Shown: positions 19,909 to 56,746 of the stretch, in pieces
Position numbering within the stretch: the stretch's first letter is position 1
Layout: the number at the start of each line of letters is the position of its first letter
Source: Octopus vulgaris
Lineage: Eukaryota
DNA: 64,000 nt
Direction of reading: 5' to 3'
Assembly: GCA_951406725.2 (NCBI GenBank)
Contig: OX597828.1
Span: 21,886,001 to 21,950,000, forward strand
Made by a program: the position numbers and the translations under genes
Notes under the pieces: model-generated
Databases searched by the model: none
What the model was told of the DNA's origin: nothing
The model's input: the letters and a program-made list of their open reading frames with translations, nothing else

Positions 19909-19961
19909 TCCATGTACTGATTGGTCAGTTTCGGTTAATCCCGTAGCCTCATCAGTAGGGA
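19909..19961 (-). ncRNA. Type I hammerhead ribozyme motif with degenerate stem I
   Basis: UCCCUA-CUGAUGA-GGCUA cgggau UAACC-GAAA-CUGA ccaa UCAG-UA^CAUGGA; intact core and a perfect 5-bp stem III. Confidence 0.6.
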
Positions 19962-21949
19962 CCGCTTGACTCGACTTTATCCGGACTTGCTTCTCTGTCA
20001 GTACATATGTATTGACCATAAAAATGATTTAGCGAATCGCTAAAGTGTATACAAAAATATAAATCACACAGCAGTATGCAGTGTTTTACCAATACGGAAA
20101 ACTATAGTTGTCACTAAATTTGACCAGGGTGTTAGAACGCCTACATTGCTAGGAGAGCTAGAAAGCCCTAATGCTGCTGTTAAAGCACAATTGTATACAT
20201 ACATATATGTATACATGATTGCATGTCTGCTGTATGCATACATGTATGTATATGAAACTGTATGTCACGTGGAATTTAGGCAATACATATATATATGCAT
20301 ATATATATACATATATATATATATATATATATATATATATATATATATATATATATATATATATATATATATATACCTGCACAGTCTTACATATATTTTT
20401 GACACGGATATAAATTGCTGTTCCTTGAGATCAAACAGACGACACTTATTCTTATTCTACGAATGTTATTTCTAGTGAACGCCATAGTTTACCAAGCGAA
20501 TCGGTGCTACTACAAATGAAGAATTGGAATTTGTAAGAAATGGTATCACGCACGTGCTTTAACCGAAACCAAGCGAGTTGTCTTTTTTTGTTTCTGTTCT
20601 TTTTTTTTTTTTTTTGTTTTTGTCTTCAACATTTAAGTTTCCATTTCAAATCTGCATCAGTTCCTTGTTTCACCTCATGATTATAATCTTTTTGATCGAA
20701 ATGTTGTATGAGAATTAATTTTGAGTCTTTTGATCTATATATATATATTTAAAAATGGCGTATTACAAAGATTTCTGTGCCATCTTACACAAATACACGT
20801 GTACAATGCTTAGAATATATATTTTCTAGTCTCATGAATACACATACAAACAAAAACCAAGGTATACCTATATCTATACATAATGTACGTATACACATGC
20901 ATTTGTACATGTATACATATTTACATACATACATACATACATACATACATACATACATATATATATATATATATATATATACATACATATATATATACAT
21001 ATATATATATATATATATATATATATATACATACATATATATATATATATATATATATATGTATATATATATATATGTATATATATACATATATAAACAT
21101 ATATGATTACGAATGCGTATGTCTATACGCACACATATATCCAGGTATGAATCTATGAATGTTTAAGCATATATATATGTATATATATATATATATATAT
21201 ATATATTTATATATATATATGTATGTATATATTTATTTATTCATGTATAAATTGTATGCATATTTGTGTGTAAGTGAGAGAGTGGGGAGAGATAAGAAAA
21301 AGAGAGAGAAGAAACAGAAAGGAAGGATGGAGAGAGAGAATGAGAGGAGAGAGAGAGGTGAAAGAGAAAGAGAGAGGGGGAGAAAGTGTGGGGCTGTGTA
21401 TGTATACGATGAAATATTTTGAAAGGTTGCGCTGAATGTGTGAAGCGGCACCCACCTTAAGCCCTCCAATCGAGGACCTTGCGACCCGGTCAAAATGTAA
21501 TTAAACCCACCGTAATTTAAGCGGAAAATGTAACTGAAAATCCGGAATATACAAACAGTAATGTTTCTATTGTGGAAGTATATATTCAGCAAAATAAAAT
21601 TATGATAGATATGAGCAAATCGAAATTACTGAGTATGACGTGTAGCATGTATTTGAACAACAAAGAATGATAAGGGTGACTGAAATACAATAATATACAG
21701 ATGGATCCTTGATTTGGAGATAGGGCTACAATCGCTTGGTGGTAACTGAGAACAACTTCAAATGTCCATATTGAAGGATTCTTTAAAATTGACAAAGCTT
21801 TATGGCAAGGACAGTTTGATTATACAACAACCACCATCAAGGGCATACGTTCAGCCACTAACACCCCCCCACGCTCACAGCCATATATATAATAATATAT
21901 TGGCTTCAAATTTTGTATCGATAAAATAAATAACAATTGTTTACTGGAT

Positions 21950-22120
21950 TCGATGAAATTGACTCTAATAGACAACTGGTCCCTGTACGTATTTTATCGA
22001 CCCCGAAAGGATGAAAGTCAAGGTCAATCTTGGTGGAATTTGGACCCAGAACTTAAAGACAAACGAAATTCCGCTAAGCATTTTGCCCGGCATGTTAACG
22101 ATGTTGCCAGCTCACCAGCT
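21950..22120 (-). mobile_element. SINE family B, diverged
   Basis: TTTATCGACCCCGAAAGGATGAAAG...CCGCTAAGCATTTTGCCCGGCATGTTAACG. Confidence 0.8.
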
Positions 22121-22142
22121 TCGCACATTTACATTAAACTGG

Positions 22143-22347
22143 TATTTCGTCGGTCTCGACGATCCGACCATTCATGAAATTTGCTTGAAATTGGTTGAGC
22201 ACTCCACGGACACGCGTACCCTTAACGTACGGAAATTCGGGGTGACACCGAATGTAACAGGGCAGGTCCGTTGAAATACAGGTACAACCCATTTTGTGCG
22301 AGATGAGTGGACTGGTGCAATGTGAATAAAGTGTCTTGCTCAAGGAC
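22143..22347 (-). mobile_element. SINE family C-related fragment
   Basis: Minus GTCCTTGAGCAAGACACTTTATTCACATTGCACCAGTCCACTCA shares its core with 41739-42030 (TTTATTTCACGTTGCTCCAGTTCACTCAGCTG). Confidence 0.65.
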
Positions 22348-53479: not shown

Positions 53480-53826
53480 AACGATAACATCACCACCACC
53501 AATACCACCACTGCCACTAACATCACTACCACCACCACCACCACCACCACCACCACCACTCTTGCTGCTACTACTATTACTACTACTGCTGCAGCTGCTG
53601 TTACTACTACTACTACTACTACTACTGCTGCTGCTGCTGCTTCTACTACTACTACTACTACTACTACTACTACTATTATTATTACTACTACTACTACTAC
53701 AACTGCTGCTGCTGCTGCTTCTGCTGCTGCTGCTACTTCCACTACTACTACTACTACCACTACTACTACTACTACTACTACTACTACTACTACTACTACT
53801 ACTACTACTACTACTATTACTACTGC
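53480..53826. repeat. Mixed trinucleotide array (CAC/TAC/TGC/TAT)
   Basis: Direct inspection. Confidence 0.9.
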
Positions 53827-55727
53827 GACTGGTTGAAACAATACACATGTTATTAGTAAATCTGCCGTAGTAGAATTCTGATCCTTCGTATTGTTAGAAT
53901 GGTACCCCTCCCCTGCCGCCACCACCTCCACCGCCGCACCTCTCCGCCATTGATCTTACATACATTTGTTGACGGAGATTAAAGATGGCGGAAAGAAGGT
54001 CAAATCCAACGGAGATCGTACGGCGAGTGTATAAAAATACATTTCCACAGATGAAGACTTTGACTTACACTCACACTTTCACGGAGAGAGGCTGAGAGAG
54101 AGAGAGAGAGAGAGAGTGAGAGTGTGAAGGGGGAGAGAAAGGGAGAGAGGGAAAGAGAGGAAGAAAGAGAGTGAGTGAGTGAGAGAGAGAAACAAAACGT
54201 CACAGGTATGTTTATCTTCGTGTATGTCATGTATGTATGTATACATATGCGTGAGGGTGTATGTGTGTGTGAGTATGCGTAGGGATAAGTGCATATATAT
54301 ATATATATGAATGTATATATATATATATATATATGAATGCATATATTTGTGTTTGAGAGTGAGGATGGGTGTGCGCGCGACTGTGTGTATGTGTGTGGAC
54401 AGGTGTAGAGTTTTAAATTCACTACTTTATATGTGTATTTGTCGCTTTTGTTTCCAAGTACGCCAATGCTTCCGAACAACTCTCTCTCTCTCTCCCCCTC
54501 TCTCTCTATCACTCTCTGTCTGTCTGTCTGTTTCTCTCTCTTGATCTATCTATCTGTCTCTCTGTCTATGTATATATGTATGTATGCATGCTTGTACGTA
54601 TGCATGTATGTAGACACGTATGCATATCAAAGGGTATATTGATGTTGGCAAATATGTGTGTGTATATATATATATACATATATATGTACGCATGTGTGTA
54701 TATATATATACATACATATATCTACATGTGGGCATGTGGGCGTGGGTATTTGTGTGAATGTGTATGTTTCTCTTATTTGTATTTATATAGGTATTTGGTA
54801 CGATGTGCATTATATGTCTATAAGATATACATGCATATATATATATATATATATATATATATATGTGTGTGTGTGTGTGTGTGTGTGTGTGTGTGTGTGT
54901 GTGTGTGTGTGTGTGTGTGTGTGGATATACGTTTGGGTAAACAAACCGGCGTAATAGTATTCACGGATAGCATTTGAGTTGATGTATTCACTCGAAGCAG
55001 ATTATTTATCTATCCTAGGAAGGAATACGCACACACGTGTAAACACACACATACACGCACAGAGTTACACGCACGTACAAACACATACGCACACGTACAT
55101 ACGTATACGAACATACACACGCATATATATATATATATATATATATATATATATATATATATATATATATGCACATATATACATATACATACATCCAATA
55201 TATATATATATATATATATATATAGATACCTGCATGAATATATATATATATATATATATATATATATATATATATATATATATATATATATATATATATA
55301 TATATATGAATATACGTATATATGTGTGGGGGTTTGTTGGTATTTGTTTGGGCTTGGATTGGCAAACCAGCGGAAATAAATCAAAACAAAATCCTTATTC
55401 AATACAAGGTGAAGATGTTATTCATGTCATACTATCTGAAGGGGTACGACACTGCCTTTTCAAGATACATATGGTGGGGTTTTTTTTAAATTTTATTTCT
55501 GTTGTCTTTTATGTATCTTTGGCAACATATGTGTATTTTGTCGTTATGATATGAATGGCACATTAAAATTTGAAATATACCATCCATGTGCCTCTCAGCA
55601 ATGCTGGTCGTATTGTAAAGGTCTTTGTAGGAGGTTACTCAACACACATGCAAACACACACATACAAATACACACACACATATACACACAAATACATACA
55701 CACATGCAGCAAAACACACATGTAGTA

Positions 55728-56111
55728 TAAATTGCTAGAATTAAGAGCTAAAAAATATGACTCGAATAGCCACACAAAATCACCAAACTCTTCAGATTAT
55801 AATATCTTATGGTATATTTATATACGCTCAGACCGCTTTGAAATTTAGCCCTCGCTGTTCCACGGTTATTTTCCTTCATGAGATAATAGGAAGCCAGCTA
55901 TCTCTTTAACCCGGAGTAATTTGAGGATTTCCCTGAATAGAAACGAAATTTCGAAATCATTTGAAAAAAGCTTATCGAATTACTTCATTCAGGGACTTTT
56001 ATCTCACTGGATATTTTGGCTTACCGTTCGCACTCCTATTGAACATCTCATGGGTTGGTGATATTTGTGGCTATTCATGGTATATTCTTTAGCTCTTATT
56101 TCTAGCAACTG
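55728..56111. mobile_element. MITE-like element with ~55-bp imperfect TIRs
   Basis: TTGCTAGAATTAAGAGCTAAAAAATAT...AATAGCCACA..ATCACCAA (55732-55786) is the inverse of TTGGTGAT..TGTGGCTATT..CTTTAGCTCTTATTTCTAGCAA (56055-56108); right end ...CAACTG|TA is Tc1-like. Confidence 0.65.
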
Positions 56112-56517
56112 TAGGTGCTGTTTTGCACCTTTAATTATGTATTCTTCATTATTCGTTCTTAATTTATCATAATATCAATTTATCATTATAATATTTTATT
56201 GCATGTATATACATATATACATACACACATACACACACACACACACACACACACACACACACACACACACACACACACACACACATATATATATATATAT
56301 ATATATATATATATATGATAATAAGTATCAAGATTTCAAGTAGCAATGCAGTACGACGTTTCAAGCGGTTAGATTTTCATTCTGTTCACCCTATTTCGAG
56401 CTGTGCGGACAATACGGACAGACTTGGTGCTTCAACTTAAGTATCTAATTCAACAGAATCTTAATTACTTCGCTCTATCTCCGTCTCTCTCTCACTCTCT
56501 CTCTGTATATATATATA

Positions 56518-56746
56518 TACAATAGAAATACAAAATGGCTGACAGTTAGTAAGGAGAGACACAAATAAGAAAGAAAAAAACAAAGGACCACTGATGCGGT
56601 CACGGGAGTGTGACGAAAGAACTCTGCCGAAATAAGATTAAGATTAATGTAAAAAATAAATAACACTGAAGCAAAGTAACACCAAATATATAGTGCGTGT
56701 GATTTTATTGGCTAAACTGGCAAAATGACCATTCCAAAATATAACT
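56518..56746 (+). repeat. ~230-bp dispersed element, copy 2
   Basis: Highly similar to 36689-36922. Confidence 0.9.

What the first reader, a model, noticed from the sequence alone, without database searches (positions are those of the whole stretch)
19909..56628. At least eight distinct hammerhead-like motifs in 64 kb, mostly in short non-coding elements inside (TA)n arrays
Seen: HHR-like folds at 19909-19961(-), 24560-24622(-), 36196-36237(-), 45339-45386(-), 47819-47904(+) and 48249-48283(+), plus core variants at 36760-36804/56585-56628(+) and 50305-50360(-). Their stems and flanks are unrelated by eye. Several have palindromic stem III (ACUAGU, ACAUAUGU, ACGU, AAUAUU). Most host elements are bounded by (TA)n. 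Established: PLE pLTRs and metazoan retrozymes carry minimal type I HHRs that can cleave as dimers through a palindromic stem III. Inference: this genome may hold a large, poorly annotated set of ribozyme-bearing non-autonomous retroelements mobilised by TA-targeting PLEs, two of which lie in this window. Such elements could also cleave host pre-mRNA.
Basis: partly seen in the sequence, partly recalled or inferred. Interest (0 to 1): 0.8.

Follow-up and report, generated by a model that had tools for sequence, protein, structure and literature searches.

The report
Penelope-type hammerheads and two retrozyme-like units
Five hammerhead-ribozyme motifs in this window stand well above chance and a sixth is probable; most are likely the leftover 3' ends of known Penelope-like jumping genes that insert into TA repeats, while two sit in ~350-base units predicted to fold into rods that likely belong to small protein-free, ribozyme-carrying mobile elements of a kind already described in mussels and corals.

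Summary
Partly confirmed. 48249 is probable; 36760/56585 and 50305 are within chance range; 24560 has no valid fold. 7 of 9 listed sites have (TA)n within 200 nt on the 3' side. The cores are the minimal hammerheads known from Penelope-like element (PLE) ends. 45339 is best read as the 3' hammerhead of a Hydra-clade PLE remnant (45244-47353); 30492 ends like the Neptune-type remnant. TA-targeting, hammerhead-bearing Hydra elements are already published for Octopus. Two sites differ: 36196 and 19909 lie in ORF-less 339- and 348-nt units with terminal direct repeats and rod-like predicted folds. Contigs of another sample show the 36196 family is abundant, restores the stem I pair broken in this copy, swaps stem III between two palindromes, and shares the head-to-tail junction. 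It is likely a non-autonomous, retrozyme-like PLE derivative. Cleavage, circular RNA and pre-mRNA cutting are untested. Verdict: new member of a known kind; interest 0.35.

The parts
36032..36481 (-). Retrozyme-like 1.3-mer: 339-nt period, direct repeats 36032-36147 and 36371-36481 (97 of 111 aligned positions identical), no ORF, (TA)n at both ends
   Evidence: fold z -5.3, 0 of 100 shuffles as good; family data
36196..36237 (-). Type I minimal hammerhead (CUGAUGA, extra C, GAAA, stem III ACUAGU, cleavage triplet GUC) at the tip of a long predicted stem I extension; the 2.1-1.1 pair is broken in this copy but is A-U in the family
   Evidence: score 26; 36232 C>T in 149,327 of 149,722 depth and 36201 T>A in 25,703 of 26,150 (run X2)
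19711..20199 (-). Older retrozyme-like 1.4-mer: about 348-nt period, direct repeats 19711-19860 and 20059-20199 (104 of 141 identical); not flanked by a (TA)>=6 array
   Evidence: fold z -3.6 for 19835-20035
19909..19961 (-). Type I hammerhead with a 5-bp hairpin stem III and decayed stems I and II
   Evidence: score 25; Rfam Hammerhead_3 E 0.11
45244..47353 (-). Inferred single Hydra-clade PLE insertion between two (TA)n arrays: inverted 5' piece, 5'-truncated ORF, long or interrupted 3' UTR, hammerhead, terminus
   Evidence: 45306-45340 matches 47353-47319 at 97% over 35 nt; 47045-47075 matches 47307-47277 at 97% over 31 nt; ends
46508..47278 (-). Broken C-terminal ORF remnant (thumb, linker, GIY-YIG) of a Hydra-clade PLE; carries CxCX5C, CxxC before E and CxH after N
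   Evidence: 53% identity over 257 aa to P0001, E 4e-84; translation; homologs carry DKT, RWK/RWR and CxCX5C
45339..45386 (-). Hydra-type hammerhead (stem I CUGU/ACAG, stem III ACUC-A-GAGU, cleavage after GUA)
   Evidence: score 31; same stem I, stem III arms and cleavage site as Hydra-2_aMil in File S2 of PMC8557442, compared by eye
33938..35540 (+). Broken Neptune-type PLE remnant (RT through GIY-YIG), ending at (TA)n
   Evidence: tblastn E 3e-42 and 9e-41 to P0009 and P0007; homologs carry RVT_1, GIY-YIG, DKG and CX2-5CxxC
30478..31165 (+).
   Evidence: score 29; its 3' end resembles the Neptune remnant's end, matched or beaten by 1 of 3968 window stretches
47370..47955 (+). 585-nt piece between (TA)n arrays with a hammerhead at 47819-47904 (CUGAAGA, long stem II, stem III ACAUAUGU); parent element unknown
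   Evidence: score 30; 3'-end relative at 60946-60987
48172..48380 (+). 209-nt pLTR-like piece between (TA)n arrays; minimal hammerhead at 48249-48283 with a U4C change
   Evidence: score 19, 0.35 expected; relative without a hammerhead at 59205-59146(-)
36688..36914 (+). Copy 1 of a 227-nt family with shared ends; hammerhead-like motif with A9C and G15.2-C16.2, and G12C in this copy; unproven
   Evidence: 94% identity to copy 2; score 18, 1.7 expected
56517..56738 (+). Copy 2 of the same family; GAAA intact, one base missing from stem I; unproven
   Evidence: score 15, 5.1 expected
50305..50360 (-). Hammerhead-like fold with two core mismatches (positions 3 and 8, unpaired); not near (TA)n; unproven
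   Evidence: score 21, 0.6 expected
24400..24722 (-). TA-bounded repeat piece holding CUGAUGA and a separate GAAA but no valid hammerhead fold
   Evidence: no hit or 79

Best explanation
The real motifs are minimal type I hammerheads that likely belong to several TA-targeting Penelope-like retroelement (PLE) families: most are likely 5'-truncated 3' ends of autonomous elements, and two (36196, 19909) are likely ORF-less ~350-nt non-autonomous derivatives that work like non-LTR retrozymes. Shown: the motifs, the direct repeats, the TA flanks, the two PLE remnants and the family variation at 36196. Inferred mechanism: a PLE or mini-unit is transcribed through head-to-tail copies; two hammerheads would pair through the palindromic stem III and cut; the long stem I would hold the two ends of the cut monomer together for ligation; PLE reverse transcriptase and GIY-YIG endonuclease would copy the circular or multimeric RNA into a nick in (TA)n. 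Copying more than one round leaves a 1.3-mer with one central hammerhead; stopping early leaves a 60-600-nt 3' end. Single dispersed copies with lesions, as here, are likely inert.
For: 5 sites at score >=25 versus 0.05 expected. The extra base after A9 and palindromic 15.2-16.2 match the published minimal PLE hammerhead. 45339 matches the Hydra hammerhead layout and shares 35 nt at 97% with the inverted 5' junction of the Hydra remnant. Shorter 3'-end relatives of three families occur at 59258, 59146 and 60946. TA link P 0.003; Hydra families, including Hydra-1_Obim of Octopus bimaculoides, are listed with (TA)n preference and a hammerhead. For 36196 (run X2): 1,965 contigs laid; A2.1-U1.1 restored in 98-99.7% of depth; adjacent changes at 36205 and 36206 (22 contigs each, about a third of depth) turn ACUAGU into ACAUGU, still a palindrome; depth 26,000-33,000 across the head-to-tail junction (36348-36379); 4 contigs in X2 and 2 in X10 carry a 15-nt segment missing from this copy at 36338/36339, the X2 ones linking linker to tail, which gives a unit of about 354 nt. 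Rod folds z -5.3 and -3.6; the other 9 hammerhead-site regions folded had z from -1.5 to +1.0. Mussel retrozymes are 350-390 bp.
Against: No whole genome was held, so no family was traced to a full-length parent or to a two-hammerhead tandem. Depth over the 36196 linker (1,700-3,900) is about a tenth of that over the tail and about 1-3% of that over the core, which also fits a large autonomous family with a minor deleted subfamily. No listed contig spans the whole unit; closure rests on overlapping pieces. About 1.1 kb of low-complexity sequence separates the Hydra stop codon from the 45339 hammerhead. The 30492-Neptune link is a 42-nt, modest match. The stem III swap may be one event in one subfamily. 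11 of 368 background 180-nt windows fold at z <= -4, so the 19909 rod alone is not exceptional. No cleavage or RNA evidence.
Confidence: 0.68

Rival explanations
1. All real motifs, 36196 and 19909 included, are plain PLE ends. The 1.3-mers are partial-tandem pLTR-plus-tail insertions or internally deleted copies of autonomous elements, with no self-propagating ~350-nt unit.
For: PLE insertions form partial tandems with an optional 30-40-bp tail; the 36339-36370 segment has that size and position. Depth falls steeply 5' of the hammerhead. Joints on opposite strands (36199-36454 in three runs) look like PLE 5' inversions.
Against: Other copies share the junction and link linker to tail through a 15-nt segment. 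None of the 6 loose ends shown for X2 lies in 36255-36337 (232 loose ends in all were not shown). Two unrelated units have nearly the same period (339, 348) and rod folds. No GIY-YIG tail is seen in any frame.
Confidence: 0.22
2. One reading: most or all motifs mark distinct non-autonomous ribozyme retroelements, and some cut host pre-mRNA.
For: Most pieces are short, ORF-less and TA-bounded. The 36688/56517 family has the same two ends in both copies.
Against: 45339 ties to an ORF-bearing Hydra remnant. Nested shorter relatives exist. 4 of 9 listed sites are unproven or unsupported. Motifs lie on both strands. Li et al. 2026 report relative depletion of retrozymes from introns and cleavage in only 1 of 9 dimers tested.
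Confidence: 0.08
3. The motifs are chance matches in AT-rich, repeat-rich DNA.
For: Rfam finds none at gathering score. The weak sites (24560, 50305, 36760/56585) fall in or near the shuffle range.
Against: 5 versus 0.05 at score >=25. Family contigs restore stem I and keep the palindrome at 36196.
Confidence: 0.02

Closest known systems
[quoted passage not shown]
   Same: Type I core, extra nucleotide after A9, short or palindromic stem III, many heterogeneous families per genome, mostly single dispersed motifs.
   Different: 36196 and 19909 sit at the tip of a long predicted stem I extension in terminally repeated ORF-less units; the paper describes a short helix I of 4-5 bp.
Hydra-clade PLEs, including Hydra-1_Obim of Octopus bimaculoides (Craig et al. 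2021, PMC8557442)
   Same: CxCX5C linker, CxxC and CxH around E and N, (TA)n insertion, 3' hammerhead, 5' inverted piece; 45339 has the Hydra-2_aMil stem I and stem III layout.
   Different: The hammerhead listed for Hydra-1_oBim has other stems and flanks than any motif here (by eye), so this is another family. The copy is truncated and broken.
Neptune-clade PLEs
   Same: RT plus C-terminal GIY-YIG; homologs carry DKG and CX2-5CxxC; insertion beside (TA)n.
   Different: The remnant stops inside the endonuclease and has no hammerhead of its own; the link to 30492 and 48249 is by short end similarity only.
Metazoan non-LTR retrozymes (Cervera and de la Pena 2020, PMC7229834; Li et al. 2026, bioRxiv 10.64898/2026.07.22.740005)
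   Same: ORF-less units of about 350 nt (mussel 350-390 bp), GC under 45%, type I hammerhead, highly self-paired predicted fold, proposed mobilisation by PLEs and origin from pLTRs.
   Different: Here 1.3-1.4-mers with a single PLE-type hammerhead, one of them bounded by (TA)n; tandem copies with two hammerheads, cleavage and circular RNA are not shown.

Membership tests
Type I hammerhead ribozyme | CUGANGA and GAAA cores, UH triplet, stems I-III | tested here: met
   Met for 19909, 30492, 36196, 45339 and 47819, with copy-level mismatches; one core change at 48249. Not met for 24560; inconclusive for 36760/56585 and 50305.
Type I hammerhead ribozyme | Self-cleavage at the predicted site | not testable with these tools
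   Only assembled contigs were available.
PLE minimal hammerhead | Extra nucleotide between A9 and 10.1; palindromic 15.2-16.2 and loop 3 | tested here: met
   48249, 36196, 30492 and 47819 by sequence against the definition. 45339 has a 1-nt loop III as in Hydra; 19909 has a hairpin stem III and no extra base.
Hydra-clade PLE (45244-47353) | CxCX5C linker; CxxC and CxH around E and N; no CCHH | tested here: met
   Translations; definition.
Hydra-clade PLE (45244-47353) | RWK and DKT motifs in the N-terminal part | tested here: inconclusive
   That part is missing from the copy; of 5 homologs checked, DKT is present in 4 and RWK/RWR in 4.
Hydra-clade PLE (45244-47353) | 3' hammerhead and (TA)n insertion | tested here: met
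   (TA)n at both inferred ends; hammerhead at 45339. That ORF and hammerhead are one insertion is inferred from the 35-nt inverted match.
Hydra-clade PLE (45244-47353) | Placement in an RT phylogeny | not tested
   No RT core is left in the copy; no tree was built.
Neptune-clade PLE (33938-35540) | DKG, CX2-5CxxC linker, C-terminal GIY-YIG | tested here: inconclusive
   Present in 4 of 4 homologs checked; degenerate and frameshifted in the copy; no tree.
Non-LTR retrozyme (36196, 19909) | ORF-less unit of about 170-400 nt, GC under 45%, highly self-paired | tested here: met
   339 and 348 nt; GC 0.43; z -5.3 and -3.6.
Non-LTR retrozyme (36196, 19909) | Tandem repeats with at least two hammerhead-bearing units | tested here: inconclusive
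   Not met at these loci (1.3- and 1.4-mers, one hammerhead each). The head-to-tail junction is shared by other copies of 36196, but no record shows two hammerheads.
Non-LTR retrozyme (36196, 19909) | Canonical hammerhead with loop 1-loop 2 tertiary contacts (lacking in mussel) | not tested
   The cores look PLE-type; tertiary contacts were not analysed.
Non-LTR retrozyme (36196, 19909) | Abundant circular RNA monomer | not testable with these tools
   Three runs guessed to be RNA are contigs only.

The most novel reading that the evidence does not exclude
The 36196 family (and the older 19909 family) are cephalopod non-LTR retrozymes: ~350-nt rod-like circular RNAs carrying a PLE-type, dimer-dependent hammerhead at the tip of a long stem, copied by Hydra or Neptune enzymes into (TA)n as dispersed 1.3-mers in very high copy number. 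They would be a direct intermediate between PLE ends and classical tandem retrozymes. A further possibility is that the 36688/56517 family carries a natural A9C hammerhead core.
Probability: 0.4. Interest if true: 0.55.

Novelty: new member of a known kind. Interest (0 to 1): 0.35.

Why it matters
Hammerheads in PLE ends, TA-targeting Hydra elements in octopus, and PLE-derived retrozymes are all in print, so the density seen here is a local example of a known pattern. The useful part is a specific, testable candidate. The 36196 family has a defined ~354-nt unit and a palindrome-preserving change in stem III. It could be used to test whether retrozyme circles are the template for PLE enzymes, which the retrozyme papers propose but do not show. 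My searches found no description of a cephalopod retrozyme. The library lacks most subscription papers, and the supplement of the 2020 retrozyme paper could not be read.

Tried and rejected
No whole genome is held, so no genome-wide scan or clustering was possible. The Rfam E-value scan was swamped by microsatellite-like microRNA models (150 of 592 rows shown, none a hammerhead); the gathering scan gave 0. Pfam gave 0 families for 3 window fragments and 5 homologs. Pattern searches found nothing in metagenome contigs or viral contigs, and no relative of the Hydra fragment was found in viral contigs. A homolog search for the ORF-like frame opposite 30492 found nothing, so whether that hammerhead overlaps a LINE ORF1 is open. 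No RNA holder was listed as such; the three RNA-guess runs laid 143, 47 and 57 contigs, which says nothing on expression, ends or circles. Look-ups of earlier findings by place and by sequence were empty. A search for a published A9C hammerhead variant gave 0 papers. I first called the 46.5-47.3 kb remnant Poseidon from memory and dropped that after the motif check. A type III parse of 19909 was set aside for its poor stem I. A second GAAA parse of 36760/56585 was rejected for lack of stem I. 55933-55961(+) scores 16 (0.88 expected) and was not counted. The direct-repeat test was run on 11 sites; only 19909 and 36196 gave non-microsatellite repeats.

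
Full report
Setting. The window is AT-rich, microsatellite-rich animal DNA (151 (TA)>=6 arrays). I take it to be octopus because I recall its SINE-like repeats; no call names the organism. No whole genome is held.

Observation. The nine listed stretches are at their coordinates. 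A strict type I descriptor found 4 sites against a mean of 0.13 in 150 block shuffles. 48249 scored 19 with 0.35 expected; the reversed window gave one site at 22. Allowing two core mismatches, 50305 scored 21 (0.6 expected), 36760 scored 18 (1.7), 56585 scored 15 (5.1) and 24560 gave nothing. Rfam has no match at gathering score. Seven of nine listed sites have (TA)n within 200 nt on the 3' side (background 0.286, P 0.003, post hoc threshold); 19909 and 50305 do not. So five motifs are solid, one is probable, and 'at least eight' is not reached.

PLE remnants. 47278-46508(-) matches a 713-aa protein at 53% over 257 aa (E 4e-84). The copy has CxCX5C, CxxC before E and CxH after N, and its homologs have DKT and RWK/RWR. 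These are the Hydra-clade marks in Craig et al. 2021 (PMC8557442; I saw passages, section 11 and supplement parts 1, 2 and 52 of 59). That supplement lists Hydra-1_Obim from Octopus bimaculoides with (TA)n preference and a hammerhead. 33938-35540(+) matches RT plus GIY-YIG proteins with DKG and CX2-5CxxC, so it is Neptune-type by motif; no tree was built. Atlas look-ups agree (GIY-YIG, HTH_animal, RVT_1 on part of the members).

Links to those PLEs. The 45339 hammerhead has the stem I, stem III arms and cleavage site of Hydra-2_aMil (by eye). The 5' junction of the Hydra remnant holds inverted near-identical copies of 35 nt just downstream of that hammerhead and of 31 nt of its own ORF. I infer one insertion, 45244-47353, between two (TA)n arrays; against this, about 1.1 kb of low-complexity sequence lies between stop codon and hammerhead. 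The 30492 piece runs, across a SINE-like insertion, to (TA)n at 31165. Its end resembles the Neptune remnant's end (matched or beaten by 1 of 3968 window stretches) and, more weakly, the 48249 piece (3 of 2744). Shorter 3'-end relatives without an intact hammerhead occur at 59258 (45339 family), 59146 (48249) and 60946 (47819), as 5' truncation would leave. Cervera and de la Pena 2014 (PMC4209133; parts 1-2 of 4 read) describe this pattern: many heterogeneous minimal hammerheads per genome, an extra base after A9, palindromic stem III, mostly single and probably from truncated PLEs, with no detectable cleavage by a single motif.

The two exceptions. Of 11 sites tested, only 36196 and 19909 lie between non-microsatellite direct repeats: period 339 (87% identity) and about 348 (74%). 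Neither shows an ORF end, and I found no similarity between them. Both fold as rods with the hammerhead at the tip: z -5.3 (0 of 100 shuffles) and -3.6 (1 of 200), while the other 9 site regions had z between -1.5 and +1.0. In the background, 11 of 368 windows reached z <= -4 and none went below -5.4 (12 shuffles each), against -6.8 for the 181-nt core of 36196 by the same kind of script.

Family data for 36196 (one DNA-guess and three RNA-guess runs, contigs only). X2 laid 1,965 contigs (95 at >=99%, 388 at 95-99%, 937 at 90-95%, 545 below 90%). Summed depth at the core is about 150,000 against 43-102 for the single long contigs listed; the tool warns this is no copy number, so I read it only as 'very abundant'. 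The broken 2.1-1.1 pair of this copy is A-U in 98-99.7% of depth. Adjacent changes at 36205 and 36206 (22 contigs each) convert ACUAGU to ACAUGU, still palindromic; phase is inferred from equal counts and it may be one event. Depth stays at 26,000-33,000 across the head-to-tail junction and one listed contig spans 36339-36450. Loose ends at 36338/36339 (4 contigs in X2, 2 in X10) show a 15-nt segment missing from this copy; the X2 ones join linker to tail, giving a unit near 354 nt. Against a pure mini-element reading: linker depth is only 1,700-3,900, no listed piece spans the unit, 232 loose ends were not shown, and opposite-strand joints resemble PLE inversions (some may come from the rod's own complementarity). 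The RNA-guess runs allow no statement on expression.

Mechanism. Shown: motifs, repeats, flanks, remnants, family variation. From the literature: PLEs nick AT-rich DNA and start reverse transcription inside the RNA, giving a 30-40-bp tail, and hammerhead cleavage was not needed for insertion in vitro (PMC11167929, passages). Retrozyme multimers self-cleave and circularise, and PLEs are the proposed helper (PMC7229834, passages and sections 14 and 17; supplement unreadable, and it may list cephalopods). Retrozymes derive from pLTRs, are relatively depleted from introns, and only 1 of 9 dimers cleaved (bioRxiv 10.64898/2026.07.22.740005, parts 1-3 of 5). Inferred: dimer cleavage through stem III, end joining helped by the long stem I, and copying into (TA)n by Hydra or Neptune enzymes. 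Dispersed single copies are likely inert, so pre-mRNA cutting is unlikely and untested.

Context and novelty. O. vulgaris has 31 recently active PLE families (PMC13282606, passages; no mention of hammerhead or ribozyme in its main text). The giant squid genome paper counts 235 Rfam hammerhead_1 loci (PMC6962438, passages). Searches for an octopus or cephalopod retrozyme returned no description, within a library that lacks most subscription papers. Earlier AI notes on other genomes reached a similar 'truncated PLE end' reading; they are leads, not support. Verdict: a real but largely known phenomenon, with one good and one weaker retrozyme-like candidate. New member of a known kind, interest 0.35.

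Noticed in passing
window 27158-28782: Broken Tc1/mariner-like transposon with 222-nt inverted ends (88% alike) and a transposase-like frame at 27777-28517; the family name is recalled.
   Followed up: no
window 29300-30480(-): GC-rich broken frame with a CCHC knuckle (CRWCLEPGHIKKNC), like a LINE ORF1; it abuts or overlaps the 30492 hammerhead on the opposite strand.
   Followed up: partly
window 55727-56110: Piece with inverted ends (55732-55786 / 56108-56055) holding a weak hammerhead-like site at 55933-55961 (score 16, not significant); a 45-nt stretch resembles the 19909 terminal repeat.
   Followed up: partly
window 60845-60998(+): TA-bounded relative of the 47819 3' end; holds a hairpin flanked by what may be a decayed hammerhead core at about 60860-60895 (seen by eye).
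   Followed up: no
window 1382-1752 and at least ten other places; 10594-11020, 40119-40906 and others: Two abundant SINE-like families, often with an internal microsatellite; several also lie close to (TA)n.
   Followed up: no
window 36688-36914 and 56517-56738: The pyrimidine-rich 3' tract typical of the other pLTR-like pieces lies on the minus strand here, so the hammerhead-like motif may be antisense to the element.
   Followed up: partly
window 39417-39840(-), 59950-60350(+), 63180-63560(+): Short remnants that look like other non-LTR retroelements, one with a (TTAG)n tail; seen by eye or in translation only.
   Followed up: no
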